Shown here piece by piece: positions 1-49,907 of a stretch of 50,838 nucleotides of DNA. Source of the DNA: Minisyncoccota bacterium. Its GTDB lineage: Bacteria > Patescibacteriota > Minisyncoccia > Phycocordibacterales > UBA9973. Positions within the stretch are counted from its first letter, which is position 1. The number at the start of each line of letters is the position of its first letter. The notes beneath the pieces were generated by a model that did no database searches, was not told where the DNA came from, and saw only the letters and a program-made list of their open reading frames with translations. A program made the translations under genes and the position numbers. The stretch is taken from the NCBI GenBank assembly GCA_043718505.1, contig JAYSVN010000023.1:1-50838 (forward strand), read 5' to 3'.

Positions 1-1463
1 GGTGGCGGTGGAGGCGGAAGAATTTGACCAAGTGTCGTACAGTTGAGAATCGTGCCGTAAGCAGTACCGCCCTGATTTTGAGCAACAGCCTGGAAATAAT
101 ATGTCGTATTTGGGAATAGACCGCTAATTACAGAGCTGAAATTTCCTGAAGAATTAAATTGAGTCTGATTGCCGACTTGATTGCCAAGTGAGTTGATATT
201 GGTACCGTACTGGAACCATGTTGTCGTAGATGAAGAACCGTTCGAGCTAAATGAGCCTGAAGCGGTAAAAGCATTTTGACTTGGGAAACAATTACCGGAA
301 GTAGTAACAACACTTGGCGCATTAATTTGCTGAGTACCTGTCAGGAAAGACAGAATTGAACCACATGATTGCGATGTTGCAGTTGTATCAGCACATGCAC
401 GGAAATGATAGGTTGTATTTGGTGAAAGACTTGAGATAAAGGCAGTAAAATTACCAGACGAGCCGAACATTTGCTGTTGTGATGTCTGATTACCGAGGCT
501 CTGTGTTGTACCCCATTCAAACCAAACAGTTGTTTGAGACTGGTTTGTCGCAAATGTACCGTTTAATGTTGCGCTTGTTTGAACAACATTTGTGGCTGGT
601 TGTGTGCCGGCAGTAACATAAGCCTGTGGCTGAACAACATTGTATTCGTCATTGTCAGTCGGACCGAAACAACCTGGGTCACTTGGGTAGTCGGTAAATC
701 CATCATTGTCATTATCCTGTTGATCGCTACACTGGTAAACAGTTGGAGGAGCATTGTATTCATCGTTATCAGTTGGACCAAAGCAGCCTGGATCACTTGG
801 ATAGTCAGTTCGACCATCGTGATCATTATCGTTGCCGTCACTGCACTGATAGACGGTAGGAGGGATAACAGTGTTGCCGATTTGGAAACGAGCAACAACT
901 GAACCCTGGTGACAGAAAGTCTGAGTTATCGGACATGTACTGTCAGGTAAAATATTACCAATTGAAAGGCCGGCCGCACTAAAGAGTGCAGCTTCTTGAG
1001 CAGTATTTAAATATTGAGGAGAAGTTGTGTGTTCAGGGAAAAGCGCAGCTGAACCCGGAATGTAAGTAATAGTTTGAGGAGTACCCGGGATTGAGACAAT
1101 AGCGTTGCCCATAACAGGACTGACGCCGGTTGCCCAAACGCCACCGACGAAAATCTTCTGATTTACGGCCGGATTATTTTGAGGAGCAATACGAAGACGT
1201 GTATCAGGTGCAATTTGGTTACCGGTGTTGTGGTAGTAGACAGTTACTGAAACAACTTCACCTGGTGCCATTGAAACACTTGGAGACCAGCAATTGAAAC
1301 AGCCCGGATTTTGTGTGTAGTTTGAAACACGGGTTGTCTGGTAGTCATTCGGATTTATATTAAAAGTTACACTTGCGTTCGCCCGAGAAATTGCCACACC
1401 AAAGAATGCCGTTGCGGCAACCGTGAACACAAAAATTATTTTTAATATATTCTTCATTTGCAT
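1..1463 (-). CDS. Secreted surface protein, N-terminal about 487 aa only. The ORF runs off the left edge, so it is missing from the ORF track. It has a signal peptide, two Cys-bracketed Asp-rich repeats and at least 2 Fn3-like modules.
   Basis: ATG at 1463 with AAGGAG (1470-1475 region) 6 nt upstream. My translation MQMKNILKIIFVFTVAATAFFGVAISRANA... stays open down to position 1. The motif PPTVYQCSDGNDNDHDGRTDYPSDPGCFGPTDNDEYN occurs twice. WFEWGTT...NTTYHFRA and WFQYGTN...NTTYYFQA modules follow. Confidence 0.8.
   Translation of the reverse strand, partial: MQMKNILKIIFVFTVAATAFFGVAISRANASVTFNINPNDYQTTRVSNYTQNPGCFNCWSPSVSMAPGEVVSVTVYYHNTGNQIAPDTRLRIAPQNNPAVNQKIFVGGVWATGVSPVMGNAIVSIPGTPQTITYIPGSAALFPEHTTSPQYLNTAQEAALFSAAGLSIGNILPDSTCPITQTFCHQGSVVARFQIGNTVIPPTVYQCSDGNDNDHDGRTDYPSDPGCFGPTDNDEYNAPPTVYQCSDQQDNDNDGFTDYPSDPGCFGPTDNDEYNVVQPQAYVTAGTQPATNVVQTSATLNGTFATNQSQTTVWFEWGTTQSLGNQTSQQQMFGSSGNFTAFISSLSPNTTYHFRACADTTATSQSCGSILSFLTGTQQINAPSVVTTSGNCFPSQNAFTASGSFSSNGSSSTTTWFQYGTNINSLGNQVGNQTQFNSSGNFSSVISGLFPNTTYYFQAVAQNQGGTAYGTILNCTTLGQILPPPPP
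640..867 (-). repeat. Two tandem 114-bp coding repeats (38 aa each) encoding the Cys-bracketed DxDxDG-like Asp-rich motif
   Basis: ttgtattcgtcattgtcagtcggaccgaaacaacctgggtcacttgggtagtcgg... at 640 is repeated as ttgtattcatcgttatcagttggaccaaagcagcctggatcacttggatagtcag... at 754. The period is 114 bp. Confidence 0.85.
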
Positions 1464-4074: not shown

Positions 4075-5769
4075 ATGCCCCAGTTCGATGAAGTAAAAGA
4101 AATGAAGAAGATTGACGACCTCAAAAAGAAGGAGGAGGAGGAGCTTATCCAAATGCTGGCCGAGCAAAAGTACCAAATCCCCTACGTTAATCTCAATAAT
4201 ATGCCTATTGAAAACGAGGCTGTCCGCGCTATTCCCGAAAATGAAGCCCGTGAGATAGAAGCCGCGCCTTTTAAAGTCCTGGGTAAAACCATTCATGTTG
4301 CTGTTCACTCTCCTGAGCGTTCTGAGATTCAGGAACTTCATAAAACACTTGAGGGTAAGGGTCTTAATCCTATTTTCTACATGGCTTCACGCGCTTCACT
4401 TGAAAAAGTCTGGGAGCGATATAAAGAAATTTCATACGCTGACCGTGTTAAGGCCGGCTCGCTTGATATTTCCGGTGATAAGCTTGTTGAGCTTGGTAAA
4501 GAGATTCACGTTATTGCTGATCTCACTAAAATGATTGAAAAAGTATCGGCTGATGATAAAACGCATAAAATCACTCACCTACTTGAAATTATTTTGGCTG
4601 GTGCGATATCAATGAACGCTTCTGATATTCATATTGAACCGGAAGAAGATCGTATTCGTTTGCGTTATCGTCTCGATGGTGTGCTTGAAGACGTTCTTTT
4701 TTTTAACTATGACGTTTATAAATATTTAAATTCTCGCATTAAGCTTCTCTCTGGCATGAAGCTTACTTTGGTCAAAAATCAGGACGGCCGATTCTCTATT
4801 TGGGTTGGTGAGTCTGAAATTTCGGTCCGTGTTTCAGCTATTCCGGGCACATATGGTGAATCAACTGTTATGCGTTTACTTAATCCGAAATCTATTCAGG
4901 TTGATCTCGAGGAAATGGGTATTGAGCCGAAACTTTTTAAAGTTATTGAAACTGAAATTAAAAAGCCGAACGGCCTCATCCTCATTACTGGTCCGACAGG
5001 TTCGGGTAAAACCACGACACTCTACGCTTTTTTGCGTAAAATTTATTCAGAAGAAATAAAAATTATTACTATTGAAGATCCGGTTGAATATCATCTCAAA
5101 GGTATCACCCAGACGCAAACAGATCATAAAAAAGGCTACACATTTTTGGAAGGTTTGCGAAGTGCTCTTCGTCAGGACCCGGACGTTATCATGGTTGGTG
5201 AAATTCGTGATCCGGAAACTGCCAAGATTGCCGTTGAATCGGCCCTCACCGGCCACTTGGTTTTTTCCACACTCCACACCAATAATGCCGCCGGTGTTAT
5301 TCCTCGCCTGATTGACCTCGACGTCAATCCAAAAATTTTGGTTTCAGCGCTTACTCTTTCTATGGCACAGCGCCTCATTCGAAAACTCTGCCCGATTTGC
5401 AAAGAGAAGCGCCCACCAACACCTGACGAAGAAACACTCATACGAAAAATCCTCAATGACGCCGTCAGCGAAGGTAAAAATATTGAAGCCTATGGTGTCA
5501 AAGCTGACCAGAAAGTAGAGTTATTTGTGCCAAAAGGTTGCGATAAATGTAACCTCGGCTATAAAGGCCGCATTGGGGTTTTCGAGGCTATTTATACTGA
5601 TGAAAATTTAGAAAAGCTTATTCCGAGCAATCCTTCTGAGCGCGATATTAAAAAAATCGGCCAAATGCAGGGCACGCTTGATATGAAAGAAGATGGGGTT
5701 GTTAAAGTTTTAAATGGTGTGACAAGTTTTGAGGAATTGCGAAGTGTGGTTGATTTGGATGAAGAATAA
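4075..5769 (+). CDS. pilB: GspE/PilB-family type IV pilus / type II secretion assembly ATPase
   Basis: Walker A GPTGSGKTT, Asp box IITIEDPVEY, Walker B DPDVIMVGEIRD and His box TGHLVFSTLHTN. There is a tetracysteine CPICKE...CDKCN and an N-terminal T2SSE_N-like region. Confidence 0.9.
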   Translation: MPQFDEVKEMKKIDDLKKKEEEELIQMLAEQKYQIPYVNLNNMPIENEAVRAIPENEAREIEAAPFKVLGKTIHVAVHSPERSEIQELHKTLEGKGLNPIFYMASRASLEKVWERYKEISYADRVKAGSLDISGDKLVELGKEIHVIADLTKMIEKVSADDKTHKITHLLEIILAGAISMNASDIHIEPEEDRIRLRYRLDGVLEDVLFFNYDVYKYLNSRIKLLSGMKLTLVKNQDGRFSIWVGESEISVRVSAIPGTYGESTVMRLLNPKSIQVDLEEMGIEPKLFKVIETEIKKPNGLILITGPTGSGKTTTLYAFLRKIYSEEIKIITIEDPVEYHLKGITQTQTDHKKGYTFLEGLRSALRQDPDVIMVGEIRDPETAKIAVESALTGHLVFSTLHTNNAAGVIPRLIDLDVNPKILVSALTLSMAQRLIRKLCPICKEKRPPTPDEETLIRKILNDAVSEGKNIEAYGVKADQKVELFVPKGCDKCNLGYKGRIGVFEAIYTDENLEKLIPSNPSERDIKKIGQMQGTLDMKEDGVVKVLNGVTSFEELRSVVDLDEE

Positions 5770-5775
5770 AAAACC

Positions 5776-5937
5776 CAAAGAAAAAGGCCTTGAATCTCTA
5801 AACAATCCTTATATCCCGGAGGATAAAAGTAAAAGATTTTTGAAGGATAGTCCCAGGAACACGGCCGAAGCCATGCACCAAGACGTCCTTCGCAAAACTC
5901 TATAGACGTTGATCCGATTGCTTAGAGATTCAAGACC
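5776..5937 (-). ncRNA. Candidate structured small RNA of unknown class. The architecture is loosely 6S-like: a closing helix, an internal bubble with a small 3'-side hairpin, and a long apical hairpin.
   Basis: A 22-bp closing helix pairs 5916-5937 with 5786-5807. Two G-U pairs in it form only on the minus strand and would be A-C mismatches on the plus strand. There is a C(UUCG)G hairpin at 5860-5875 and a C(UCCG)G hairpin at 5812-5825. A U-rich tail UUUUUCUUUGGGUUUUUU follows the helix. A possible TTGAAA/ATTAAT promoter lies just upstream at 5944-5975. Confidence 0.55.
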
Positions 5938-6024
5938 TCTTCCAAGAATTAATTGGAGAAATCTGCTATTATTTCAATTGTAGTTCGGTGGCAAAAATTG
6001 AAAGACATACCTTGTGTGTATGTC

Positions 6025-6053
6025 TGTGGAAAAAATGTTAATTGTGTGGATAA
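6025..6053 (-). promoter_or_regulatory. Pair of DnaA-box sequences upstream of ruvB
   Basis: tgtggataa at 6045-6053 is a perfect reverse complement of TTATCCACA. tgtggaaaa at 6025-6033 matches 8/9. Both have the same orientation and are 20 nt apart. Confidence 0.5.
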
Positions 6054-6100
6054 CCACAGTTATTTGCCGATCTGAACAGATTGTATCACAACTAAAATTT

Positions 6101-7153
6101 ATGTCAAGAGATTCAAATACTGATAATCAAACTAATGAAGGGTTTAAAAAACCGGCTGATGACGGTTTTCTTGACGTTACTCTTCGCCCCGCGAAATGGG
6201 AAGAATACATCGGACAAGGTCACATCAAGGAAAATCTCCGCATTTTACTTGATGCCGCGCGTGAGCGTGGCCATACAGCTGAGCATATTCTCTTTTATGG
6301 TCCGCCGGGTCTTGGAAAAACCACACTCGCCCATCTCATTGCCAAAGAAACTGGTAGAAATATCCGTGTGACATCTGGTCCGGCAATTGAACGTGTCGGT
6401 GATCTGGCTTCTATTCTCACCAACCTTACACCTGGTGACATTTTATTTATCGATGAAATCCATCGCCTCAATAAATTAATTGAAGAGGTTCTCTACCCTG
6501 CCATGGAAGGCGGCACACTCGACATTATCATCGGCAAAGGTCCTTCGGCTCGTACAATTCAGCTTGAGCTTCCGCCTTTTACACTCATCGCCGCCACAAC
6601 TCGTATTTCCCTCTTGTCTGCGCCACTTCGTTCACGTTTTTCCGGCGGCACGTTTCGTCTTGAATACTACACACCGGAAGAAATTGAGAAAATCATTGAA
6701 CGTTCAGCGAAAATTTTGGAAATTGAGCTCAACAACGATGCCCGTAGTGAAATTGCCAAGAGAAGCCGCCGCACCCCTCGTACTGCCAACTACTTTCTTA
6801 AGCGTGTCCGTGACTATGCCCAAGTTCACAAAACCGATGCCGGTGGTGATGCTGCTAAGAAAGCTCTTGCGCTTCTTGGTGTTGATGAATATGGTCTTGG
6901 TCAAACAGACAGGCAGCTTTTAGAAGTTCTTATAGAAAAATTTAACGGCGGACCGGTTGGCGTCAAAACCCTTGCCGCAGCCACCAGTGAAGAAGAAGGT
7001 ACTATTGAAGAAGTTATTGAACCATACTTATTACAAATTGGTTTCCTTGAGCGCACTCCGCGCGGCCGCACCGCCACCAAGCGCGCGTACGACCATCTCG
7101 GTTTTGAATATAAAGAAGAAAATAACGAGCCTAAGCAAGATACTCTTATATAA
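6101..7153 (+). CDS. ruvB: Holliday junction branch-migration helicase RuvB. I place the start at the internal ATG 6101 rather than the ORF-track GTG 6014.
   Basis: LRPAKWEEYIGQ, Walker A GPPGLGKTTLA and Walker B ILFIDEIHRL. The N-terminal 29 aa of the track ORF are hydrophobic and overlap the DnaA-box region. Confidence 0.92.
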   Translation: MSRDSNTDNQTNEGFKKPADDGFLDVTLRPAKWEEYIGQGHIKENLRILLDAARERGHTAEHILFYGPPGLGKTTLAHLIAKETGRNIRVTSGPAIERVGDLASILTNLTPGDILFIDEIHRLNKLIEEVLYPAMEGGTLDIIIGKGPSARTIQLELPPFTLIAATTRISLLSAPLRSRFSGGTFRLEYYTPEEIEKIIERSAKILEIELNNDARSEIAKRSRRTPRTANYFLKRVRDYAQVHKTDAGGDAAKKALALLGVDEYGLGQTDRQLLEVLIEKFNGGPVGVKTLAAATSEEEGTIEEVIEPYLLQIGFLERTPRGRTATKRAYDHLGFEYKEENNEPKQDTLI

Positions 7154-7629: not shown

Positions 7630-8193
7630 ATGAAGCAATATACATATGTTTTCGCAGGTGTGTTCGCTCTCTTATTAATAATCACAGGTGTTAAGGTTGT
7701 ACGGGCTGAACTACAGTCAATGTGTCCGGCAGATTGTCGCGTGTATGTATCAAGTAATGGTGATGTTTTATTGACACCATATACAACACAGTTGTCATTT
7801 AATGGTCAGACTTACTATAACCAGAACATGACTGAAAGTGCTCTCCAAAGTGTACTCAGGAAGCAGTGCAAGACTGGTTGTAAAGTTTATAAAGAAGAAA
7901 ACGGTAATGCGGTTTTGTCTTATAAGAGTGGGCCTTATAATTCCTCTGTTGTGAATATAAACCAGTCAATGTGCCCAACAGACTGCGCAACGTATGTTTC
8001 TCAAAATGGCGCCATTATTTTGGTTGATCTTGTTCACAACCTGGCGCTCAATGGCCAAGTTTATAATCATGTAAACCTCGATAATGCAGGGATAGCAGCC
8101 GTTATCCGTAACGAATGCGCTTCTAGCTGTCAGGTTTATAGAGGAGTAGACAACCAAGTAATTACAGATTACACAGTGGAAATCGAAAGCTAA
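7630..8193 (+). CDS. Secreted Cys-repeat protein, 187 aa, with an internally duplicated A-B-A-B arrangement of CxxxC-x-(V/T)Y units
   Basis: It has a signal-like N-terminus. The repeat units are MCPADCRVYVSSNGDVLL / CKTGCKVYKEENGNAVL / MCPTDCATYVSQNGAIIL / CASSCQVYRGVDNQVI. Confidence 0.65.
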   Translation: MKQYTYVFAGVFALLLIITGVKVVRAELQSMCPADCRVYVSSNGDVLLTPYTTQLSFNGQTYYNQNMTESALQSVLRKQCKTGCKVYKEENGNAVLSYKSGPYNSSVVNINQSMCPTDCATYVSQNGAIILVDLVHNLALNGQVYNHVNLDNAGIAAVIRNECASSCQVYRGVDNQVITDYTVEIES

Positions 8194-8522: not shown

Positions 8523-8602
8523 AGTGTTATTTTTCTATATTATATAACTATATTTTATAAATGTCAATTCTCTTCTTTAGTCGCCTGTTCTATACTTACC
8601 CC

Positions 8603-9091
8603 ATGAAAATCATCGGTATTGATCCTGGTTTTGATAGAAATGGAGTGGCTGTCGTTGAACGAACTGGCGCGAAAGATATTCTTATATACTCATTTCTTAT
8701 TCAAACGGATAGAAAAATGGAAATGTCAGAGCGTCTGGCTTCCCTCTTCACTCAATTTGAGCAAATTTTAAAAGATTATAAACCTGATCTCCTTATTATG
8801 GAGCAATTATTTTTGTCGAAGAATGCCAAGACGGTTATTGGTGTAGCTGAGGCACGCGGCGTGATTTTGGCGGCGGCCGGCAGAGCAAATATACCGACAA
8901 AGGAAATCGGCCCGCTTCAGGTAAAACAAGCCATCACCGGTTACGGCAAAGCTGAAAAATCGGCTGTGGCCATGATGGTGAGCAAGCTTATTGCACTTCC
9001 TGACCGCAAAATAATCGATGATGAGATCGATGCAATTGCTATTGCGCTGGCTGGTTGTGCTATATATGGCCGCGGGTTTTCCACAAAATAG
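8603..9091 (+). CDS. ruvC: Holliday junction resolvase RuvC. The start is moved to ATG 8603.
   Basis: MKIIGIDPGFDRNGVAV..., MEQLF, and DAIAIAL near the C-terminus. TATACT (8591-8596) lies exactly 6 nt upstream of ATG 8603. Confidence 0.88.
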   Translation: MKIIGIDPGFDRNGVAVVERTGAKDILIYSFLIQTDRKMEMSERLASLFTQFEQILKDYKPDLLIMEQLFLSKNAKTVIGVAEARGVILAAAGRANIPTKEIGPLQVKQAITGYGKAEKSAVAMMVSKLIALPDRKIIDDEIDAIAIALAGCAIYGRGFSTK

Positions 9092-13669: not shown

Positions 13670-14764
13670 TTATCTATTCATCGGCATCATGAGGTAAAGA
13701 AAGCCGCCTTCACCCACCCCGCGAACAACAATTGGTTTCATTTCGCTACATTCGATAGAAATACTGTCACTACCGATAACATTGAGGACTTCGGACAAAT
13801 AACGGTAATTTACAAGCACTTCAATAGGATTACCCTTTAAAGCCCCTGTTAAAACTGTTTTTTGTTCGCCAACATCACTGTTTTTTGAAGATAAAGAAAA
13901 CATTTTCTGGCTTGGATCAAGATTGAGAATAATTTGATTAAATTTTCCGGAAAAAACATTTGAAAGTCTGAGGGCCTGTACGAGGTCGCCCTTTAGCACC
14001 ACAGCCTCGGTTGTGTGGTCTTTCGGGATAATCTGCCTGTAATCAGGGAAAATGCCGCTGACGAGCCGGCTGGTGACGTAAAAGCCACCTGAGGTGAAGG
14101 ACACCTGGTGTTCTGAAACCGTAACTGTCATATCTTCTCCCCCGGCTTCAAAAGTTCTAACTATATCAACAACATTTTTAAGCGGAATTAAAATAGCCGG
14201 CATATCGATTGGGTTTTTCATTTTTATTTTCTTTTCAGCCAGGCGAAATGAATCTGTTGAAACAAAAACCATTTCACTTTCGTCTATGTAGACATATACA
14301 GCTGCAATCTCCGGTTTTATATCAGACACCGATCCGGCAAACATCACCGAACGAAAGCCGTCGAGTAGTTTTTCTGTCGGTATAGTAAAACTAATACCGG
14401 TTACGGTTGGTAGAGTTGGAAAATCATCATAAGAAACACATTTTATAAGGGCATTGCTGGTTTTTGATGTTAGGCGAATATTATCATTTTCAGTCGTGAT
14501 AGCGGTTGAACCATTTGAGAGAGTATTTGCCAGAAAATTACTGAGAATTGCACCTGTTACAGCCACGATACCCTCCTCTTCAATCTTTGCCGGTATTTCA
14601 ATTTCAATACCAAGGCTTAGGTTTGTAGCACGGACCTTGAGTGATTTACCGGAGGCAACCAAAAGAATAGATGAAAGAGCAGGGAGAGCGACATTCTTAC
14701 CTGTTATTCGATCAGCAACATTGATAATATTTTTTAGGTTTTCGTTTATGCACTCCAGTTTCAT
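13670..14764 (-). CDS. dnaN: DNA polymerase III beta sliding clamp
   Basis: The length is 364 aa, with three-domain clamp-like sequence. It lies directly downstream of dnaA and ends in LMMPMNR. Confidence 0.9.
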   Translation of the reverse strand: MKLECINENLKNIINVADRITGKNVALPALSSILLVASGKSLKVRATNLSLGIEIEIPAKIEEEGIVAVTGAILSNFLANTLSNGSTAITTENDNIRLTSKTSNALIKCVSYDDFPTLPTVTGISFTIPTEKLLDGFRSVMFAGSVSDIKPEIAAVYVYIDESEMVFVSTDSFRLAEKKIKMKNPIDMPAILIPLKNVVDIVRTFEAGGEDMTVTVSEHQVSFTSGGFYVTSRLVSGIFPDYRQIIPKDHTTEAVVLKGDLVQALRLSNVFSGKFNQIILNLDPSQKMFSLSSKNSDVGEQKTVLTGALKGNPIEVLVNYRYLSEVLNVIGSDSISIECSEMKPIVVRGVGEGGFLYLMMPMNR

Positions 14765-14986
14765 AATTTATTGTATATAGAATCTATTATTACTATTATC
14801 GCTGTGGATATGTGGATTACTTTTTCAGCCTTTATTTTTCAGTATATTTTTTATGTTCGGTTTTTCACACTTGGGGATAACTTATTTTATTTTTCATGTA
14901 ACTTTTATTTAAAAAAGTTATTCTTTTTCAGTTCACAGTTTATTTTTCACTTATCAGATTCTTTTTCAACACTTATCCACCGACTT
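14765..14986. other. oriC candidate, dnaA-dnaN sub-region: four 8/9 DnaA boxes plus AT-rich repeats that may act as the unwinding element
   Basis: The boxes are tgtggatat 14803-14811, tgtggatta 14811-14819, tggggataa 14872-14880 and ttatccacc 14973-14981. The 11-mer TTTATTTTTCA occurs at 14831, 14886 and 14939. Additional TTTTTCA copies are present. Confidence 0.6.
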
Positions 14987-16348
14987 CTACACAGATTTAA
15001 ATAAAATTCTAATCTGTTCTACTTCATCAACCAGTGTCTGATCCACTTTTAAATCATTCCTAATCTTCAAATGAGAGTGAATAACAGTCGTATGGTCTTT
15101 ACCCCCGAGCTTTTGACCGATGAGAGGATAGGAAACATTAAAGTCTTCACGCAGAACATACATAATCACCTGCCTGGCCTTCACAATTTCCTTCCGGCGG
15201 GTTTTTTCATAGACAGTAGCCTCTTCAAGATTATAAAAATCAGTAATAATTTTCACAATATCTTTTACTGAGACGTTTTTCTTTGGCTTTACACTATTTT
15301 TGATGAGATTTTTAATTTCATTAATAGAAAGTGGTTTCTGTTTGAGTTGGGTTTGAATGATTATTGTGTTCAGTACGCCCTCTAATTCGCGGATATTTCC
15401 CTGTATAGCGGTTGCGATGAAAGAAAGTACCTCATCGGTAATTTCTATACCCAGTTGACGGCTCTTGGCTTTCAAAATAGCAACACGAGATTCATAGTCA
15501 GGATCAATAATGTCGACAATCATGCCGGCCGCAAAGCGCGATTTGAGGCGATCTTCGAGACCAGGGATGAAATTAGGATGTTTATCAGAAGAAAAGATAA
15601 TTTGTTTATTGTGATCGTAGAATGTATTAAAGAGATGGAAGAGCTCTTCCTGAGTCTTTTCCATTTTACCGATGAATTGAATGTCGTCGATCACAATACA
15701 GTCGTATTTTCGGTATTTCTCCTTAAATTGGAATGGATTTGATTTACTATTCCCTTGAAGTGAGTTGATATAGTCATTGGCAAATTTCTCGAGAGTAATA
15801 TAGTGAACTTTTTTCTCCGGATACTTTTCTTTAATAGCATTTCCTGTTGCTTGAATGAGGTGAGTCTTTCCAAGACCAGTACTACCATAGATAAAAAATG
15901 GATTATAAAGGACACCGGGCTTATTTATAATTGCCTGACCTGCTGCATAGGCAAGTTCATTAAATGAACCGACGATAAATGTATCGAAAGTATAGCGTGG
16001 ATTTAAATTATCTTCTTTGTTTATGTAGAGATCTTTAAGAGGTAGTTCCCTCGAAGGTAAAAGGTGAACCGGACTTTCATCTTTGGTGCGGTTGTGATCA
16101 AAACGAGTAATAGTATATTCAACACCACGAACATTCTCTGAATAATTCATGAGAACCTTTAAAATAAGCTTGTGATATTTAGTCACCAGCCATTCCTTCA
16201 CAAATTCATTTGGTACACCAACAAAAATAGTTCCCGAGTCTTCTTTTGCAATATGAGTATTTTTAAACCATGTACTAAAGTTTGCTTTTGAAACATTGGT
16301 CTCAATCTCTTGTAAGCAGCTATTCCAAATTTCTCTAGTATCGAGCAT
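14987..16348 (-). CDS. dnaA: Chromosomal replication initiator DnaA
   Basis: Walker A GSTGLGKTHL, Walker B IVIDDIQF, and a domain IV motif KDHTTVIHS. TATAAT (16355-16360) lies exactly 6 nt upstream of the ATG. Confidence 0.95.
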   Translation of the reverse strand: MLDTREIWNSCLQEIETNVSKANFSTWFKNTHIAKEDSGTIFVGVPNEFVKEWLVTKYHKLILKVLMNYSENVRGVEYTITRFDHNRTKDESPVHLLPSRELPLKDLYINKEDNLNPRYTFDTFIVGSFNELAYAAGQAIINKPGVLYNPFFIYGSTGLGKTHLIQATGNAIKEKYPEKKVHYITLEKFANDYINSLQGNSKSNPFQFKEKYRKYDCIVIDDIQFIGKMEKTQEELFHLFNTFYDHNKQIIFSSDKHPNFIPGLEDRLKSRFAAGMIVDIIDPDYESRVAILKAKSRQLGIEITDEVLSFIATAIQGNIRELEGVLNTIIIQTQLKQKPLSINEIKNLIKNSVKPKKNVSVKDIVKIITDFYNLEEATVYEKTRRKEIVKARQVIMYVLREDFNVSYPLIGQKLGGKDHTTVIHSHLKIRNDLKVDQTLVDEVEQIRILFKSV

Positions 16349-16576
16349 GGCACCATTATAGGCTTATTGAAGACATGTGCAAACCTTGATTTTTTTATGA
16401 AGTAATGTGGATAACTTGTTGAAAAGTCCTGAAAATCCTTATTGTGTATGGCTCAAACGAATCCACACATATTTTCCAATAATTGGAAGCAAAAAAGTAT
16501 AAACAAATTATGAAGTAATAATCAAATTTGTCTAAATATTGTCTAAATTGATTCAGTAGTGTATAGTGGGTCGCAT
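16349..16576. other. oriC candidate, dnaA-rpmH sub-region, also holding the divergent dnaA and rpmH promoters
   Basis: A perfect DnaA box tgtggataa lies at 16406-16414 and a degenerate gaatccaca at 16459-16467. The 12-nt direct repeat ttatgaagtaat occurs at 16395 and 16508. The tandem ttgtctaaat a ttgtctaaat spans 16528-16548. The rpmH promoter reads TTGTCT-17-TATAGT. Confidence 0.55.
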
Positions 16577-16726
16577 ATGTCACAAACATACAAGCCAAAG
16601 AAGCGAAAAAGAGCCACAACACACGGCTTTCTTGTTCGTGGCAAGTCTAAAAACGGTAAAAAAGTACTCATTCGCCGCCGCCGCAAGGGCCGAAAAGCGC
16701 TCACGGTCTCCAGCCACAAAAAATAG
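16577..16726 (+). CDS. rpmH: 50S ribosomal protein L34. It is absent from the ORF track because it is 49 aa and is overlapped by a spurious longer frame.
   Basis: My translation is [49 protein letters not shown]. It sits in the classic position upstream of rnpA. Confidence 0.92.
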
Positions 16727-16727
16727 T

Positions 16728-17054
16728 ATGTTGCCTAAGGGTAAAAGAATGAAAGGGCTGGAGATTGCTCTTATTTTTTCTCGTGCCAAAACAGCCCGCA
16801 GCTCCCTTTTTATCCTTAAATATGTAAAAAATCCTACAACTAAACCATCTTTCGCTATAGCGGCTGCCAAAAAAGTTTTTAAAACAGCAGTTGAGAGAAA
16901 TAAAGTCCGTCGACGAATATATTCTGCTATTCGATCAGCTAAAATGGAAAATATTCCCTACTCAATCGTTATTATGCCAAACTATGAGGCAATACAAGCG
17001 CCGTATAAGAAGCTTGTCGAAGCAATTGAGACAATATGCAAAGACTTAAAATAA
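16728..17054 (+). CDS. rnpA: RNase P protein component. It starts at an internal Met of the 162-aa track ORF.
   Basis: The sequence [33 protein letters not shown]...[20 protein letters not shown] contains the RNR-type basic motif. The ATG lies 1 nt after the rpmH stop. Confidence 0.85.
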
Positions 17055-17290
17055 TCTTGAATACTGTCACTATAGCCCTCATTAGGGGTTATCAGAAATT
17101 CCTGTCACCTGACCATAGTTTCCTGCGATACATATTTCAAAAAAGAATTTGTCGCTTTCATCCGACATGCTCAGAATATGCAATTGAGGCCATAGAAAAA
17201 TATGGACTGTCAAAAGGTATTCCTATGGCAATGAAGCGTATTAGCCGCTGCCACCCATTTTCTCCAGGGGGGTATGATCCAGTCGAGTAG
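17036..17290 (+). CDS. yidD: Membrane protein insertion efficiency factor YidD
   Basis: YQKFLSP...[19 protein letters not shown]...[16 protein letters not shown]. Confidence 0.9.
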
Positions 17291-17315
17291 AATAATAATT
17301 AAAAACTAGAAGTAA

Positions 17316-17348
17316 AAATCGGCAAATTGTATGCCGATTTTGATTTTT
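17316..17348 (+). terminator. Rho-independent terminator after yidD
   Basis: aaatcggca aattgta tgccgattt followed by tgattttt. Confidence 0.7.
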
Positions 17349-17373
17349 CCTTTCTCTCCGCTACAATACGAGG

Positions 17374-18105
17374 ATGTTTAAGACCCTTTGGAACGTCGTC
17401 CTCTATAATCCGCTCTACAACCTCCTCATCCTTCTCGTTGGGCTGTTTGGGGGAAATGCCGGGCTTGGTATTCTTGCTCTTACCCTCGTTGTAAAGGCAA
17501 TTTTATTGCCATTTACAGCCAAAACGATCAAAAGCCAGATTGCCATGAAGGCCATCGAGCCGAAATTACAGAAAATTCGTGAAGAGCACTCTACAGACAA
17601 ACAGCTTCAGACCAAGAAAACTTTTGAATTATATAAAGAGCACAAAGTAAATCCATTTACCGGCTGCCTACTTCTCCTGGTTCAGTTGCCGGTTATTATT
17701 GCTCTCTACCAGGTGGTGCTTGGTGGTTTCGATATCCGTCCCGAACTTCTCTATGGAGGTATCAACTTCCCTGAAAATATCAGCACAATGTTTCTCGGGC
17801 TTGATATTACAAAAAAGAGTTTAATCCTTGCTATTCTTGTCGCTGGCCTGCAATTCTTACAAGGCTGGCTCGCCGGAAAAAATATGGGACCAGTGGCCCC
17901 AACAACCGGTAAAAGTATGCAGGCTGATTTACAAAAGAGTATGCAAATGCAAATGAAATATTTCCTGCCTGTTATGGTTGGCTTCATTACCTATACGCTT
18001 CCGGCAGCCATCGGCCTCTATTGGGCCGCCAACATCCTGGTGACAATTGCCCAGGAATACTACCTTCGTAACCGATATAAAAAAATCTATGAGCGAAGCA
18101 ATTAA
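17374..18105 (+). CDS. yidC: YidC/Oxa1-family membrane insertase, short form
   Basis: It has multi-TM sequence with the LPFTAKTIKSQIAMKAIEPKLQKIRE pattern and a C-terminal GLYWAANILVTIAQ. TACAAT (17362-17367) lies 6 nt upstream of the ATG. Confidence 0.88.
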   Translation: MFKTLWNVVLYNPLYNLLILLVGLFGGNAGLGILALTLVVKAILLPFTAKTIKSQIAMKAIEPKLQKIREEHSTDKQLQTKKTFELYKEHKVNPFTGCLLLLVQLPVIIALYQVVLGGFDIRPELLYGGINFPENISTMFLGLDITKKSLILAILVAGLQFLQGWLAGKNMGPVAPTTGKSMQADLQKSMQMQMKYFLPVMVGFITYTLPAAIGLYWAANILVTIAQEYYLRNRYKKIYERSN

Positions 18106-18573: not shown

Positions 18574-19161
18574 ATGGAATCAAATCCGATCGAAATAGAA
18601 AAAAGTTCCAATCCCTACGAAAATATTATTAAAAGTGAAAGTTTCCAGAAATGGTTTTCTGGAAGTGTGGTGGTTGATGAAAATAACGAACCCCTGGTTG
18701 TATATCACTCAAGCACAATTAAGAATTTTGACGGCATTGAACTCAAGCCAGACACCCAGACTGATAATTGGTCTTCTTATGGTATATATTTTTCTTCAGA
18801 CAGGTCTGCTACCAGAGACTTCTTTAAGACAGATTATGAACAATCTACGGAGCGTTTTAAGAGACTAATGCGTGACCCGCTATTAAAGGAAAAAGACTCA
18901 ATTATTAAAGATCGCAAAGAATACGTAAAGAAACACGAACCCATTGTTAAAACATTTAATTCCTTTTTAAGTATAAAAAAACCCCTAAAATTAAATAACC
19001 ACCAAGAACTCATGGATCTCTATTATTCAGGTGCAACCAGAGAAAAACTTATGGAACACTATGATGGAATTATTGTGAAATTCGACCCTAATTTTACTGA
19101 CCAATATATAATTTTCAATCCTGAACAGGCAATGATTCTGCCGTCTAATTTAGCTGAATAA
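18574..19161 (+). CDS. Hypothetical protein, 195 aa. Its N-terminal region resembles the ADP-ribosyltransferase-like module of phage and plasmid polyvalent proteins.
   Basis: FQKWFSGSVVVDENNEPLVVYHSS...SYGIYFSSDRSATRDF matches the remembered pattern F..WFG.S.VVD..G.PLVVYHGT...G.YF(S/T). This has not been verified by any search. Confidence 0.4.
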   Translation: MESNPIEIEKSSNPYENIIKSESFQKWFSGSVVVDENNEPLVVYHSSTIKNFDGIELKPDTQTDNWSSYGIYFSSDRSATRDFFKTDYEQSTERFKRLMRDPLLKEKDSIIKDRKEYVKKHEPIVKTFNSFLSIKKPLKLNNHQELMDLYYSGATREKLMEHYDGIIVKFDPNFTDQYIIFNPEQAMILPSNLAE

Positions 19162-19165
19162 TTTT

Positions 19166-20494
19166 TTATTGATTAGAAGTTGTCTCAGGCCGCAGGTCCA
19201 AACTCCACAGCGAACCATCCTTTTTATTTAAGAAAACCAGAAATGTATTTAACGGATCAACTGTAAGATTCGTCGCATCTATTGAAGCACTTACATCTGA
19301 AGGATTGGCGATAACAACTGAAGAAAAAGTAGCCGTATCTATTTTATAAATCTGATCAGTAAAGCTCACAATTCCCTGGTACCAGGCGTCGGGATATTCG
19401 GCATTCGGCATATATGAAGGCACAGCACAGTAGAGAATAGTATTAGACTGCCACAGGCATTTTTCCGGCAATGTTGTTGCGCCAGGAAGTTGGAAGACGC
19501 CTTTTGAGCCCAAATTGTACAAACTCGTTGTTGTTGAACCGTTTCCTGCTCTTGATAAAAGAACTTGTTTGCCGTCGGGACTCATGAGCGTCGTTAAACC
19601 CAGGATACCGCCAAAGATTTTTTTCATGACCTTGCTTGATGTATCGATAGAGTAATAGTAACCGGGAACTTTGGCTGACGGTTTGGTTGTAAGCGTTACA
19701 AATTTCGCAGTCGGCCACTCAGTTGTCCAGTCTGAAAAAGCCAGAGAGAAAAGCTGATTCTTTTTTGTACCGTCAGGAAGAGAAATTGTACCGGCTGAAC
19801 CATTCTCCCCTTTTGCAACACTAAATATTTTTTCACGGTCCGGAGAAAGAGCAATTGCGGTAATATCTTCCGGTAAATATGTGCCCCGAAGACTTGTATC
19901 CGGCGAACCGTCTTTTTTGGCAATAAGCGGGATATTACCGGCGAATGTTTGAATCGCATTACTCGTGTCAGCATAACGAAGCACGGCCGTTGTTCCGGAT
20001 TTGCCGGTAAAAAATGACTCAACAATTTTTGGAATAGTAGTATTAGTTATTTTACTAATATCAATTTTATCTAAATAGGTTTCGTTGGTGTGACCAGTGG
20101 AACTTTCACTATAGCGAAGCATGGTCGCCGGTTCCATTTCTATTGGTACAGGTTTGCCATCTTTATCTTTTTTGTTTGGATCCTGTCCGGCCTTTGGTCG
20201 TGTGACATCAAAAGCGACAGCGCCTGAAATCGGTCCTTTGGCAACCATAACAAGCTTTGGTGGTTTACTTGGCTCAGGTATTTCGTCAGGCAGCACCTCG
20301 TCGTCGTTCTCATTGTCCGTTGTTCCATTTTGAGTATTATTGCCGCTATCATTAAATGGAAAAAGGTCCTGAAGAGAAAAACCACCACCTGTGTCAGTCG
20401 GCGTTTTTTTTGACGAAAAAAGCAGAAAATATGCCATAATCCCGGCGCCAAGGAGGAGAACAACCAATATGATGATGAAAATTTTTTTAAGCAT
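19166..20494 (-). CDS. Membrane-anchored protein, 442 aa, with an acidic/Pro linker and a TolB-like (PD40-type) beta-propeller region. It is the last gene of the T4SS-like train.
   Basis: The N-terminal TM segment is IFIIILVVLLLGAGIMAYFLLF. SPDREKIF and SPDGKQVLL repeats are present. The start lies 1 nt after the upstream stop. Confidence 0.6.
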   Translation of the reverse strand: MLKKIFIIILVVLLLGAGIMAYFLLFSSKKTPTDTGGGFSLQDLFPFNDSGNNTQNGTTDNENDDEVLPDEIPEPSKPPKLVMVAKGPISGAVAFDVTRPKAGQDPNKKDKDGKPVPIEMEPATMLRYSESSTGHTNETYLDKIDISKITNTTIPKIVESFFTGKSGTTAVLRYADTSNAIQTFAGNIPLIAKKDGSPDTSLRGTYLPEDITAIALSPDREKIFSVAKGENGSAGTISLPDGTKKNQLFSLAFSDWTTEWPTAKFVTLTTKPSAKVPGYYYSIDTSSKVMKKIFGGILGLTTLMSPDGKQVLLSRAGNGSTTTSLYNLGSKGVFQLPGATTLPEKCLWQSNTILYCAVPSYMPNAEYPDAWYQGIVSFTDQIYKIDTATFSSVVIANPSDVSASIDATNLTVDPLNTFLVFLNKKDGSLWSLDLRPETTSNQ

Positions 20495-20495
20495 G

Positions 20496-21797
20496 TTATT
20501 GAATGACCACTTTTGTTCCTGTCTTCATATATTTTGCCAGAACAATCAGATCATCATTATACATTCGAACACAACCGTTTGTGACAGCCAAACTATTCGA
20601 GGCCCGGCCGTGGAAACCAATTCCTCTGTCCGGCGTTGTACCAATATTTATAAATGCGGCACCCATATTGTATTTTCCACTGCGATCAAATATGGAATTG
20701 GTTTGATTTATTGAAAGTCGCTGATCAGTATTAATATATGTTGTACCTTTTGGTGTTTTACCGTCTCCACTTGTTGCTTGTGTAGCTTCAGCAATTCCAT
20801 TTTTACCAAGACCTACTGATACTGTTGCTGAGTCAGTCAGAGTACCGTTACTAATTTTAAAAGTAGCTTTTTTGGATGTTGTATCAACAACTATTTCCTG
20901 AAGTGTATAACCAGAACCAAGTTTTTGTCCGATCTGGGCGACTCCCGCGCTCGGGGCTGGGGTAAGAAAACTACCATGCATAGTGTAGCCGGCATTAGGA
21001 GCAGTTTGCTCTTCTGTTTGACCAAACAGTGTTTCATCAGGAGTAAATTGAATATTTACTTTATCTACTCCAAAGGTAAAATTCAGTAATTTGGGATTTA
21101 CTGTATTTAAAATCGCATAAGAGCCAAGAGCAATAATTAATCCGTACACAGCATTCTTAATTCTTGTTCTACCCTCTTCTTTGCCGCCAAGAGCATCAGT
21201 CGTCATATATTGAACACCGCCGAAGAAAATCATAATCACGGCCAGTACTCCGGCCAGACCGATCAGAATTTTATACATCATGCCGAAGTAATCATTGAGG
21301 TCTTTGTCGCGAATAACTGAAACTCCGCCGAGCGGTGCAAGAAGACAATAGCCGTCACGGCCGGCGGAACAAGTTGGTGTCGGGGTGGTACTTCCAACTC
21401 CAACAAAGTTAGCTTGAGTAGTAAAAGTAATTGCACCTGGAGTGTAAACGGTAGTAGGGTTGGCAGCGTCTACAATTTGGAAAGTATACGTTGTATTTGG
21501 CTGAAGGTTAGGAATAGTGTGAACAAAAGAACTATTCATAGGGGCAGTAAACGGTCCTTCAAATTGGTGAGGATACATACTAATTTCTCCGCCTTCCCAA
21601 TATTCAATTTTAACCTGCTTGTCAGTCATAAAATTACTGGTTGTACCAGTAATATCAGTCGAAGTTGGAGACGTTTGACTAATGTCCGAAGCACTAACTG
21701 TTATTGTCGGTAGAAGAAGTTGTGCCTGAGCCGTCGCAGAAAATAAAACACCCATTACTAAACATGAAATTATTATTTTTTTGAATGTCTTTTTCAT
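20496..21797 (-). CDS. Fusion protein, 433 aa: signal peptide, Fn3/Ig-like domain, T4SS (VirB2/TrbC-type) pilin module with 2 TM helices, and a C-terminal L,D-transpeptidase (YkuD) catalytic domain
   Basis: The pilin-like core is LLAPLGGVSVI...YKILIGLAGVLAVIMIFFGGVQYMTTDALGGKEEGRTRIKNAVYGLIIALGSYAILNTVNP. The YkuD motif is GFHGRASNSLAVTNGCVRM, giving His...Cys. Confidence 0.65.
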   Translation of the reverse strand: MKKTFKKIIISCLVMGVLFSATAQAQLLLPTITVSASDISQTSPTSTDITGTTSNFMTDKQVKIEYWEGGEISMYPHQFEGPFTAPMNSSFVHTIPNLQPNTTYTFQIVDAANPTTVYTPGAITFTTQANFVGVGSTTPTPTCSAGRDGYCLLAPLGGVSVIRDKDLNDYFGMMYKILIGLAGVLAVIMIFFGGVQYMTTDALGGKEEGRTRIKNAVYGLIIALGSYAILNTVNPKLLNFTFGVDKVNIQFTPDETLFGQTEEQTAPNAGYTMHGSFLTPAPSAGVAQIGQKLGSGYTLQEIVVDTTSKKATFKISNGTLTDSATVSVGLGKNGIAEATQATSGDGKTPKGTTYINTDQRLSINQTNSIFDRSGKYNMGAAFINIGTTPDRGIGFHGRASNSLAVTNGCVRMYNDDLIVLAKYMKTGTKVVIQ

Positions 21798-21798
21798 A

Positions 21799-22827: not shown

Positions 22828-22834
22828 TAAAAGT

Positions 22835-22843
22835 ATTATAGCA
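22835..22843 (-). promoter_or_regulatory. Internal extended -10 promoter (TGcTATAAT), 7 nt upstream of ATG 22827
   Basis: The reverse complement reads tgctataat actttta ATG. It lies in the 56-nt gap after virB4. Confidence 0.6.
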
Positions 22844-22883
22844 GCAAAGCAGAGTAGAAACAGGCATCTCCTGAGGAAAGATT

Positions 22884-48828: not shown

Positions 48829-48935
48829 AAAGTAAACAATATAATTACTTTTATAATATAAAACCCTTATAATTAGACAAATAGTGAAATAGATGTCATA
48901 ATATGCCTAAGAAATGATCTATACAACTTTAGTTC

Positions 48936-48966: not shown

Positions 48967-48971
48967 AAAAT

Positions 48972-49810: not shown

Positions 49811-49871
49811 AGAGCTCATCAATGCCGGTGGTCTCTAAATGAAATTGTTCATTCACATAGATATATAAATT

Positions 49872-49902: not shown

Positions 49903-49907
49903 TATAA

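What the first reader, a model, noticed from the sequence alone, without database searches (positions are those of the whole stretch)
5776..5937. Strongly structured ~160-nt small RNA candidate antisense-oriented between pilB and ruvB
The 330-nt pilB-ruvB spacer contains a 22-bp helix pairing 5916-5937 with 5786-5807.

**Evidence for the minus strand**
- On the minus strand every position of the helix pairs, with two G-U wobbles. On the plus strand those two positions become A-C mismatches.
- The enclosed sequence forms a long irregular hairpin capped by C(UUCG)G at 5860-5875. The supporting stems are GAAGGA/UCCUUC, GUCUU/GGGAC and GG/CC.
- A second small hairpin is capped by C(UCCG)G at 5812-5825. 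Both are UNCG tetraloops only in the minus orientation.
- The closing helix is followed by UUUUUCUUUGGGUUUUUU, which looks like an intrinsic terminator.
- A TTGAAA-18-ATTAAT promoter-like sequence lies just upstream.

**Interpretation**
- The layout is a closing helix, a bubble with a 3'-side mini-hairpin, and an apical helix. This is reminiscent of 6S RNA, but at about 160 nt it is short for that family.
- I could not match conserved SRP, RNase P or tmRNA motifs.
Basis: seen in the sequence. Interest (0 to 1): 0.72.

Follow-up and report, generated by a model that had tools for sequence, protein, structure and literature searches.

The report
New four-way-junction small RNA beside ruvB
The pilB-ruvB spacer encodes a real, previously undescribed ~165-nt structured RNA, conserved across a whole class of ultra-small uncultivated (CPR) bacteria, whose promoter is built into the start codon of the DNA-repair gene ruvB; its function is unknown.

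Summary
On the minus strand, 5780-5943 folds into a 28-bp closing helix (P1) that encloses three hairpins, forming a four-way junction. MFE is -81.2 kcal/mol (z = -9.8).

Homologues occur in 21 Minisyncoccia (Parcubacteria/Paceibacteria) genomes and in more than 110 metagenome contigs. They always lie antisense-upstream of ruvB, and usually convergent with pilB.

- **Covariation:** strong. 92.7% of cells pair, against 41-52% when partners are slid, and 34 of 50 pairs show double changes.
- **Strand:** 627 G·U cells against 72 A·C cells fix the RNA on the minus strand.
- **Known families:** no Rfam 15 family matches (6S, SRP, Y, RNase P and others), no paper describes it, and no viral contig carries it.
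- **Promoter:** a near-consensus promoter, TTGACAT-N13/14-TGnTAnnnT, drives it. Its -35 is the reverse complement of ruvB's ATG-TCA-A start. A ruvB-sense extended -10 faces it, so the two transcription units interlock.
it is not the conserved one.

The 6S analogy is not supported as membership, but cannot be excluded functionally.

Best reading: a new class of stable, probably protein-binding RNA whose transcription also antagonises ruvB expression. The partner and the mechanism are inferred, not shown.

The parts
6102..6107 (-). -35 hexamer TTGACA of the conserved promoter for the RNA. It is the reverse complement of ruvB codons 1-2 (ATG TCA A; ATG at 6101-6103).
   Evidence: Promoter scan scores 11/12 with a TG extension. 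TTGACAT is found in 92/108 relatives. It coincides with the ruvB start in 73/103 metagenome loci. Among genome loci it does so in 10/15 that carry the RNA and 0/48 that lack it.
6080..6088 (-). Extended -10 element TGaTACAAT of the RNA promoter. The predicted transcription start is near 6073.
   Evidence: In the family, the TG lies 19-20 nt from the start of the -35 in 58 cases. The family consensus is TATGCTATACT.
5944..6073 (-). Predicted 5' leader of about 130 nt, antisense to the ruvB 5' UTR. It contains a terminator-like hairpin (6003-6025) and DnaA-box-like motifs (6045-6053 perfect, 6025-6033 with one mismatch).
   Evidence: Inferred from the promoter position. Hairpin, boxes. Leader length varies from about 10 to 170 nt across the family.
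5916..5943 (-). P1 5' arm of the 28-bp closing helix. The inner half, AAUCUCUAAGCAAUC, is nearly invariant in close relatives.
   Evidence: The 26 P1 pairs are 95.9% paired and 18 show double changes.
5904..5915 (-). P2, a short and weak 5' hairpin (GGAU-CAAC-GUCU).
   Evidence: Across the family this segment averages -2.7 kcal/mol against -0.9 for shuffles, and it is a 13-nt segment in 40/87 members.
5832..5901 (-). P3, the long irregular hairpin capped by UUCG (5866-5869). Its conserved core is AGGAC..UGG (5878-5889) opposite CUG..AUCCU (5844-5856). In the family the core includes a tandem U·G/G·U wobble.
   Evidence: AGGAC and AUCCU are invariant. Pair counts are U·G 77/87, G·U 74/87 and G-C 87/87. 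Consensus.
5808..5829 (-). P4, the 3' hairpin capped by UCCG (5817-5820).
   Evidence: Seven of its 8 pairs show double changes.
5780..5807 (-). P1 3' arm (GAUUGUUUAGAGAUUCAAGGCCUUUUUC).
5766..5779 (-). U-rich tail (UUUGGGUUUUUUAU) after P1. It is the probable intrinsic-termination site and overlaps the pilB stop codon (5767-5769).
   Evidence: Read directly from the sequence. A U-run follows P1 in 65/114 relatives.
5964..5972 (+). ruvB-sense extended -10 element TGcTATTAT. It faces the RNA promoter, and the predicted ruvB transcription start is near 5979.
   Evidence: Its reverse complement ATTATAGCA (= TGCTATAAT) occurs in 49/108 relatives between P1 and the RNA promoter. Window sequence.
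4075..5769 (+). pilB (T2SSE ATPase), convergent with the RNA.
   Evidence: Pfam PF00437, E = 8e-113. Synteny.
6101..7153 (+). ruvB, divergent from the RNA. Its start codon lies inside the RNA promoter's -35.
   Evidence: Pfam RuvB_N, AAA_lid_4 and RuvB_C. Synteny.

Best explanation
**What it is**
This is the gene for a previously undescribed family of ~165-nt small RNAs of Minisyncoccia (Parcubacteria/Paceibacteria, CPR). It is encoded on the strand opposite to pilB and ruvB.

**Shown**
- The RNA folds into a near-perfect four-way junction. It has a 26-31-bp uninterrupted closing helix P1, a weak 5' hairpin P2, a long hairpin P3 and a 3' hairpin P4.
- P3 carries an invariant AGGAC/AUCCU internal loop and a tandem U·G/G·U wobble.
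- The structure, the strand and the position next to ruvB are conserved in more than 130 loci.
- A near-consensus sigma-70 extended -10 promoter precedes the RNA. Its -35 (TTGACA) is the reverse complement of the ruvB start (ATG TCA A).
- A ruvB-sense extended -10 faces that promoter.

**Inferred (about 0.8)**
- Transcription starts about 30 nt upstream of the ruvB ATG and runs antisense through the ruvB 5' UTR and promoter.
- It ends at P1 plus the U-tract, next to the pilB stop codon.
- The variable leader is trimmed to leave the structured core.

**Inferred (about 0.5 each)**
- The mature junction is an abundant, stable RNA that works by binding a protein. The conserved positions lie in helices and in one internal loop, not in loops available for base pairing. 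The partner is unknown, and RNA polymerase (6S-like) is the leading single candidate.
- Firing of the strong RNA promoter interferes with the facing ruvB promoter. The two would then be expressed reciprocally.
For: **Stability and homologues**
- Minus-strand fold is -81.2 kcal/mol, z = -9.8.
- Homologues were found by nhmmer and by covariance model upstream and antisense of ruvB in L001-L018, L026, L032 and L034. None was found in 46 non-CPR ruvB loci.
- A DNA pattern containing no protein information hit at least 120 metagenome stretches. Essentially all of them flank ruvB.

**Covariation and strand**
- 92.7% of cells pair, against 78.9% in shuffles (0 of 500 shuffles reach it) and 41-52% when partners are slid.
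- 34 of 50 pairs carry double changes.
- There are 627 G·U cells against 72 A·C cells.
- Distant members keep a ~28-bp P1 with a different sequence.

**Promoter**
- TTGACAT occurs in 92/108 relatives. The 19-20 nt spacing to TGnTAnnnT occurs in 58. It overlaps the ruvB ATG in 73/103.
- The promoter persists in L003, L004 and L034, where it is not the ruvB start.
- Among genome loci, the ATGTCAA ruvB start is present in 10/15 that carry the RNA and 0/48 that lack it.
- The facing ruvB-sense TGCTATAAT occurs in 49/108.

**Not merely a terminator**
- 43% of members lack a U-run after P1 and often have a separate hairpin downstream.
- The interior of the RNA is conserved.
Against: - No expression data were available, so the transcript, its ends, its abundance and any processing are all inferred.
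- No protein partner is identified.
- A perfect 28-bp duplex would be an RNase III substrate. That is unusual for a stable bacterial RNA.
- The junction strands carry no conserved nucleotides, so there is no obvious active site or ligand pocket.
- The strict linkage to ruvB could simply follow from the promoter overlapping the start codon. It need not reflect any regulatory relationship.
- The ruvB-sense promoter was recognised in fewer than half of the loci.
Confidence: 0.55

Rival explanations
1. It is the 6S RNA of these bacteria, or a functional analogue. P1 and P3 would stack into a rod that mimics promoter DNA. The weak P2 strand would act as the open-bubble template, and the RNA would sequester the sigma-70 holoenzyme.
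For: - Size is about 165 nt, with two long arms flanking a central region.
- The 5' strand of that central region is a weak 13-nt segment in 40/87 members, and the 3' strand forms a hairpin, as in many 6S RNAs.
- The promoter is very strong and a leader suggests processing.
- The gene is single-copy in the 50.8-kb window and occupies one syntenic site across the class.
- Anecdotally, the P1 ends (UCUCUAAG / UUAGAGAUUC) resemble the E. coli 6S ends (UCUCUGAG / CGGAGAUUC).
Against: - No Rfam 6S or 6S-Flavo hit at E <= 10 in the window or in 20 other members.
- The family model scores E. coli 6S at 3.6 bits or less.
- P1 is a perfect A-form duplex without the periodic bulges of 6S stems.
- P4 covaries (7 of 8 pairs), and junction linkers are only 0-2 nt in the window. 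There is therefore no large open bubble.
Confidence: 0.2
2. It acts purely in cis. The point would be strong antisense transcription across the ruvB promoter and 5' UTR. The structured domain would only stabilise and terminate that transcript and insulate pilB, with no function in trans.
For: - The facing, interlocked promoters are conserved.
- The leader is fully complementary to the ruvB 5' UTR.
- P1 plus the U-tract abuts the pilB stop codon.
Against: - A simple terminator hairpin would do that job.
- Instead, a 165-nt four-way junction is conserved across a class, with an invariant internal loop, tandem wobbles and a conserved P1 length of about 28 bp.
- 43% of members terminate elsewhere.
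Confidence: 0.15
3. The RNA four-way junction mimics a Holliday junction. Its two long opposite arms (P1, P3) and two short arms (P2, P4) would bind or titrate RuvA, RuvB or RuvC. This would explain the linkage to ruvB.
For: - It is a perfect four-way junction with long opposite arms.
- Adjacency to ruvB is invariant.
- ruvC lies 2.5 kb away, at 8561-9088.
Against: - RuvA and RuvB recognise B-form DNA, from general knowledge of their helix-hairpin-helix and AAA+ contacts. These RNA arms are A-form.
- The linkage is already explained by the promoter overlapping the start codon.
- There is no evidence of any kind for binding.
Confidence: 0.05
4. The functional strand is the plus strand. The hairpin would be a processing or termination element inside a pilB-ruvB co-transcript.
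For: - pilB and ruvB share the plus strand, and no plus-strand U-tract terminator follows pilB.
- The plus strand still folds at -52.7 kcal/mol.
Against: - Only 80.0% of cells would pair on that strand, against 92.7% on the minus strand. There are 627 G·U cells against 72 A·C cells.
- The conserved promoter and the U-tracts point the other way.
Confidence: 0.03
5. It is a DNA-level element: a MITE or other mobile-element relic, or a protein-binding inverted repeat.
For: It has long terminal inverted repeats, and the inner arm sequence is conserved in close relatives.
Against: - It is single-copy in the window and syntenic in more than 130 loci.
- It is absent from viral contigs.
- Compensatory changes occur in all helices, and the G·U bias is specific to one strand.
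- The arm sequence changes in distant members while pairing is kept.
Confidence: 0.02

Closest known systems
6S RNA (ssrS; Rfam RF00013 and RF01685)
   Same: - Length is about 160-185 nt.
- Two long helical arms flank a central region, with a hairpin on the 3' side.
- It is a stand-alone gene with a strong sigma-70 promoter and a 5' leader that is probably trimmed.
- It is conserved as one copy at a fixed site.
   Different: - No covariance-model similarity in either direction.
- The closing helix is a perfect 28-bp duplex.
- The centre is a closed four-way junction with a covarying P4, not an open bubble.
- Conserved positions lie in helices, in the inner half of P1 and the core of P3.
Overlapping, facing (convergent) promoter pairs and 5'-overlapping cis-antisense RNAs that act by transcriptional interference
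   Same: - Two promoters fire towards each other.
- Their transcription starts are 0-130 nt apart.
- Each transcript runs through the other's core promoter.
- The RNA leader is complementary to the ruvB 5' UTR.
   Different: - Here the antisense partner carries a large, independently conserved structured domain.
- Its -35 is embedded in the sense gene's start codon. This fixes the RuvB N-terminus as M-S-(S/R/T/I).
Bacterial Y RNAs (YrlA) and tRNA-like cloverleaf scaffolds
   Same: - A long stem is formed by the 5' and 3' ends.
- That stem carries a multi-hairpin module.
- The topology is a four-way junction, like a cloverleaf.
   Different: - No Rfam Y_RNA or tRNA match.
- Loops are variable, with no T-loop or D-loop signatures.
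- No rsr (Ro) gene is adjacent; the neighbours are pilB and ruvB.
Retron msr-msd non-coding RNA
   Same: Long terminal inverted repeats (a1/a2-like) enclose several hairpins.
   Different: - No reverse transcriptase gene is adjacent in any locus. The flanks are always ruvB and usually pilB.
- There is one syntenic copy per locus, conserved across a class.

Membership tests
6S RNA | Scores against the curated 6S covariance models (Rfam RF00013, RF01685). | tested here: not met
   No hit at gathering score in the window. No hit at E <= 10 on 5650-6150 or on 20 other family members. In the reverse test, model R1 scores E. coli ssrS at 3.6 bits or less.
6S RNA | A rod of bulge-interrupted helices around a large, mostly single-stranded central bubble. 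| tested here: inconclusive
   Two long arms are present. However, P1 is uninterrupted over 28 bp, and the centre is a four-way junction with 0-2-nt linkers. P4 covaries. P2 is weak and could open.
6S RNA | Binds the sigma-70 RNA polymerase holoenzyme and templates pRNA synthesis. | not testable with these tools
   This needs biochemistry with the cognate polymerase.
SRP RNA (4.5S / ffs) | Helix 8 with a GNAR tetraloop and the conserved symmetric and asymmetric loops; match to Rfam SRP models. | tested here: not met
   No Rfam SRP hit. The apical loops are variable across members: UUCG, UUUA and others.
Y RNA / YrlA | Match to Y RNA models and linkage to rsr (Ro). | tested here: not met
   No Rfam hit. 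The neighbours are ruvB and pilB in all loci.
Retron ncRNA | An adjacent reverse transcriptase gene downstream of the msd. | tested here: not met
   The downstream gene is convergent pilB and the upstream gene is ruvB.
MITE / mobile inverted-repeat element | Multiple dispersed copies with variable insertion sites. | tested here: not met
   One copy in 50.8 kb. The same syntenic site is used in more than 130 loci.
Intrinsic terminator only | A GC-rich hairpin followed by a U-tract, with no conserved interior. | tested here: not met
   A U-run follows P1 in only 65/114 members. The interior helices covary and carry invariant motifs.
Structured ncRNA (generic criterion) | Compensatory base changes that support the helices on one strand, across diverged sequences. 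| tested here: met
   34 of 50 pairs have double changes. 92.7% of cells pair, against 41-52% when partners are slid, and 0 of 500 shuffles reach the observed values. G·U cells outnumber A·C cells 627 to 72.

The most novel reading that the evidence does not exclude
The four-way-junction RNA is a structural mimic of a Holliday junction. It would bind and regulate the RuvAB(C) branch-migration and resolution machinery, much as 6S RNA mimics an open promoter. Its gene is physically interlocked with ruvB. A less exotic but still novel alternative is that it is the RNA subunit of a housekeeping ribonucleoprotein specific to Parcubacteria and not yet known.
Probability: 0.05. Interest if true: 0.9.

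Novelty: categorically new. Interest (0 to 1): 0.68.

Why it matters
**A new RNA class in a poorly understood lineage**
- Minisyncoccia/Parcubacteria are among the most abundant and least understood bacteria. They have ~1-Mb genomes, in which every conserved element is likely to matter.
- A large RNA with complex folding and strong covariation, kept at one site across the class, is a candidate new housekeeping RNA. No such class-wide RNA has been described for CPR bacteria in Rfam 15 or in the searched literature.

**An unusual overlapping code**
- The -35 hexamer of the RNA promoter is the start codon plus codon 2 of ruvB on the other strand.
- This fixes the RuvB N-terminus and locks the two genes together.
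- It also gives a directly testable model of reciprocal expression between an abundant RNA and a recombination-repair gene.

**If it proves 6S-like**
- It would extend RNA-polymerase-sequestering RNAs to the CPR with a new architecture.

Tried and rejected
**Known RNA families**
- Rfam at gathering score over the whole window found nothing.
- Rfam at E <= 10 around the element and on 20 other family members found only chance miRNA and sRNA hairpin hits.
- ARAGORN found no tRNA or tmRNA.

**Other kinds of element**
- MITE or repeat: single copy.
- Phage origin: 0 hits in viral contigs.
- Plus-strand element: rejected by the G·U versus A·C count.
- Retron: no adjacent reverse transcriptase.
- RuvA next to ruvB: the 187-aa ORF at 7630-8190 has no RuvA domains.

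**Promoter**
Position profiles are flat and -10-like hexamers are scattered.
- The real promoter emerged only from k-mer enrichment.

**Origin of replication**
- The spacer was considered as oriC because of its DnaA boxes, and rejected.
- The boxes are restricted to a subfamily.
- dnaA, dnaN, rnpA and yidC, with their own box, lie about 10 kb away.

**6S and literature**
- E. coli 6S against the family model gives no signal.
- Searches for 6S in CPR, Parcubacteria RNA motifs, a ruvB motif and Patescibacteria ncRNA found no relevant paper. The one paper holding both '6S RNA' and 'Patescibacteria' was irrelevant.
- A small ORF within the RNA was not pursued. Covariation in all four helices and length variation among aligned members argue against coding.

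Full report
**1. The observation**

The window carries pilB (4075-5769, +; T2SSE ATPase) and ruvB (6101-7153, +), separated by 331 nt. It is the inner part of an uninterrupted 28-bp helix, P1, pairing 5916-5943 with 5780-5807. P1 encloses three hairpins:
- P2 (5904-5915) is short and weak.
- P3 (5832-5901) is long and capped by UUCG.
- P4 (5808-5829) is capped by UCCG.

Linkers between helices are 0-2 nt, so the fold is a near-perfect four-way junction.

The minus strand folds at -81.2 kcal/mol (z = -9.84). The plus strand folds at -52.7 kcal/mol (z = -5.96). The element is single-copy in the window. The U-rich tail (5766-5779) overlaps the pilB stop codon.

**2. Is it a known RNA?**

Rfam 15 gives no hit at gathering score anywhere in the window. 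At E <= 10 it gives no meaningful hit around the element or on 20 other family members. That covers 6S, SRP, Y RNA, RNase P, tmRNA, riboswitches and ribozymes. ARAGORN finds nothing. Six literature searches found no description.

**3. Relatives**

The closest RuvB proteins (73-75% identity) are from Minisyncoccia/Parcubacteria metagenome-assembled genomes.

- nhmmer found the element upstream of ruvB and antisense to it in nine of those loci.
- A 10-sequence alignment already gave 28 of 47 pairs with compensatory changes.
It hit none in viral contigs.
- About 113 of the metagenome stretches are genuine members.
- In practically every locus with enough flank, the RNA lies 50-400 nt upstream of ruvB and divergent from it.
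- pilB is convergent downstream, usually within 15-350 nt and sometimes 0.7-7 kb away. The link to ruvB is therefore the tighter one.

A covariance model (R1) also finds the RNA at the same place in more distant lineages. These include Ryanbacteria, Kaiserbacteria, Sungiibacteriota, Moraniibacteriota and Zambryskibacteria. In total, 21 of the best CPR ruvB loci carry it, and none of 46 non-CPR loci do.

**4. Structure and strand**

On an 88-sequence model-based alignment (A3):
- 92.7% of cells form standard pairs, against 78.9% in shuffles (0 of 500 shuffles reach it) and 41-52% with slid partners.
- 34 of 50 pairs carry changes on both sides.
- P1, the base of P3 and P4 all covary.
- There are 627 G·U cells and 72 A·C cells. 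The opposite strand would pair only 80.0% of cells, so the RNA is the window's minus strand.

The invariant or near-invariant positions are as follows:
- the inner half of P1, AAUCUCUAAG paired with CUUAGAGAUU;
- the P3 core, where AGGA pairs with UCCU around a C / YA internal loop;
- a tandem U·G/G·U wobble closed by a G-C pair.

Loops and junction strands are variable.

Distant members change the P1 sequence but keep a perfect duplex of about 28 bp. P1 length is 26-31 bp throughout. P2 is weak. It is a 13-nt segment in 40 of 87 members and averages -2.7 kcal/mol against -0.9 for shuffles.

**5. The transcription unit**

A position profile upstream of P1 shows no fixed promoter, and -10-like hexamers are scattered.

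K-mer enrichment in the 200 nt upstream of P1 revealed the real promoter:
- CTTGACAT is present as TTGACAT in 92 of 108 loci.
- TATGCTATACT lies at a fixed 19-20 nt from the start of the -35 to the TG.
- Together these form a near-consensus sigma-70 extended -10 promoter with a 17-nt spacer, pointing towards the RNA.

The TTGACAT is the reverse complement of ATG-TCA-A, the start of ruvB. This holds in 73 of 103 metagenome loci. There RuvB begins M-S-(S/R/T/I) before its sequence becomes variable. Among genome loci it holds in 10 of 15 that carry the RNA and 0 of 48 that lack it. In L003, L004 and L034 the same promoter is present but is not the ruvB start. It is therefore a promoter in its own right.

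In the window the elements are as follows:
- The -35 is at 6107-6102.
- The TG is at 6088-6087.
- The -10 (TACAAT) is at 6085-6080.
- The predicted start is near 6073, which gives a ~130-nt leader.

Between this promoter and P1, 49 of 108 loci carry ATTATAGCA. This is the reverse complement of TGCTATAAT, an extended -10 pointing to ruvB. In the window it is TGcTATTAT at 5964-5972.

The two promoters therefore face each other, and each transcribes through the other's core elements. In compact loci the two predicted starts nearly coincide. In the window the transcripts would overlap by about 90 nt. The promoters and their orientation are observed in the sequence. Mutual exclusion and antisense pairing are inferred.

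At the 3' end, 65 of 114 members, including the window, have a U-run directly after P1. The others often have a separate GC-rich hairpin 15-30 nt downstream. P1 is therefore not merely a terminator.

**6. What it most likely does**

The evidence supports a discrete, probably abundant, structured RNA. Three lines point to a stable housekeeping-type RNA:
- The promoter is near-consensus.
- The gene lies close to the origin region. dnaN, dnaA, rnpA and yidC sit at 13.7-18.1 kb.
- The RNA is conserved across the class.

Conservation sits in helices and one internal loop, not in loops. This argues for recognition by a protein rather than base pairing with targets. The interlocked promoters argue for reciprocal expression with ruvB. 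I put the existence of the RNA family at about 0.9 or higher, the transcription-unit model at about 0.8, and each functional inference at about 0.5.

**7. Rivals**

- **6S-like RNA polymerase decoy (0.2).** The dimensions, the weak 5' junction strand and the strong promoter fit. The model tests in both directions do not. Nor do the bulge-free P1 and the closed junction. The resemblance between the P1 ends and the E. coli 6S ends is anecdotal.
- **Purely cis antisense or insulator element (0.15).** It does not explain the conserved 165-nt junction.
- **Holliday-junction mimic for RuvAB(C) (0.05).** The four-way geometry and the nearby ruvB and ruvC genes are suggestive, but A-form RNA is a poor substrate and the linkage is already explained.
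- **Plus-strand mRNA element (0.03) and DNA-level or mobile element (0.02).** Both are contradicted.

**8. Novelty**

No Rfam family, no paper in the searched library and no recalled bacterial RNA class has this architecture. It combines a perfect 28-bp closing helix with a four-way junction and an AGGAC/AUCCU core carrying tandem wobbles. I therefore class it as a new RNA class. Its mode of action may yet turn out to resemble a known one, such as 6S-like sequestration or cis-antisense interference.

Noticed in passing
window 6045-6053 and 6025-6033; family spacers, e.g. L099, L112, L162, L198: DnaA-box-like motifs sit between the RNA promoter and P1. In the long-leader subfamily, three direct repeats of TATC(A/C)ACA lie 11-12 nt apart, and the last one abuts the ruvB-sense -10 (TGCTATAATGTTGATAG). 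The motif TATN[AC]ACA has 95 sense and 3 antisense hits in 96 spacers, or 10.3 per kb against 0.26 per kb elsewhere. This suggests that DnaA controls ruvB, the RNA, or both.
   Followed up: partly
window 13673-18102: This is the classical origin neighbourhood: dnaN (13673-14764, -), dnaA (14990-16348, -), rnpA (16566-17051, +) and yidC (17374-18102, +). A perfect DnaA box at 16406 lies in the dnaA-rnpA spacer. The RNA gene is only about 10 kb from it. Because rnpA is present, a normal RNase P RNA should exist elsewhere.
   Followed up: partly
metagenome loci L084-L198, 1.2-2.5 kb on the ruvB side of the RNA: The perfect 9-mer TGTGGATAA (read on the RNA-sense strand) recurs just beyond the 3' end of ruvB in about 30 loci. 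In total there are 48 perfect boxes in 719 kb, where about 5 are expected. Whether these lie in coding or intergenic sequence was not determined.
   Followed up: no
window 6003-6025 (minus strand): A terminator-like hairpin, AGACAUAC..GUAUGUCU followed by UUCAAUUUUU, lies inside the predicted RNA leader. It could attenuate the transcript before it reaches the structured domain, or it could be the mirror image of a ruvB 5' UTR hairpin.
   Followed up: no
window 6101-6109 and ruvB starts in L081-L200: The overlapping -35 hexamer constrains the RuvB N-terminus to M-S-(S/R/T/I) across the family. The 30 nt upstream of the ATG are A/U-rich promoter sequence with no evident Shine-Dalgarno motif.
   Followed up: yes
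window 638-863: Two tandem copies of a ~112-nt unit (638-749 and 752-863) share 74% identity (family D1).
   Followed up: no
window 48921-48978 and 49857-49914: A repeated 58-nt motif contains a small hairpin (TGGGT..ACCCA), then AAAAACTA and ATGAAAA. It looks like a shared upstream region of two neighbouring paralogous genes (family D5).
   Followed up: no
window 18574-24728: A cluster with a mobile or conjugative flavour includes an ART-PolyVal ADP-ribosyltransferase domain (18574-19158). It also has a YkuD protein with a T4SS-pilin-like segment (20499-21797) and a TraG-like P-loop ATPase (22887-24728). Several large neighbouring ORFs have no Pfam match.
   Followed up: no
L201 (E. coli ssrS) compared with window 5780-5943: The ends of E. 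coli 6S RNA (5' UUUCUCUGAGAUG, 3' CAUCUCGGAGAUUC) resemble the conserved P1 arms here (AAUCUCUAAGCAAU / UUGUUUAGAGAUUC). No model-based score supports homology.
   Followed up: partly
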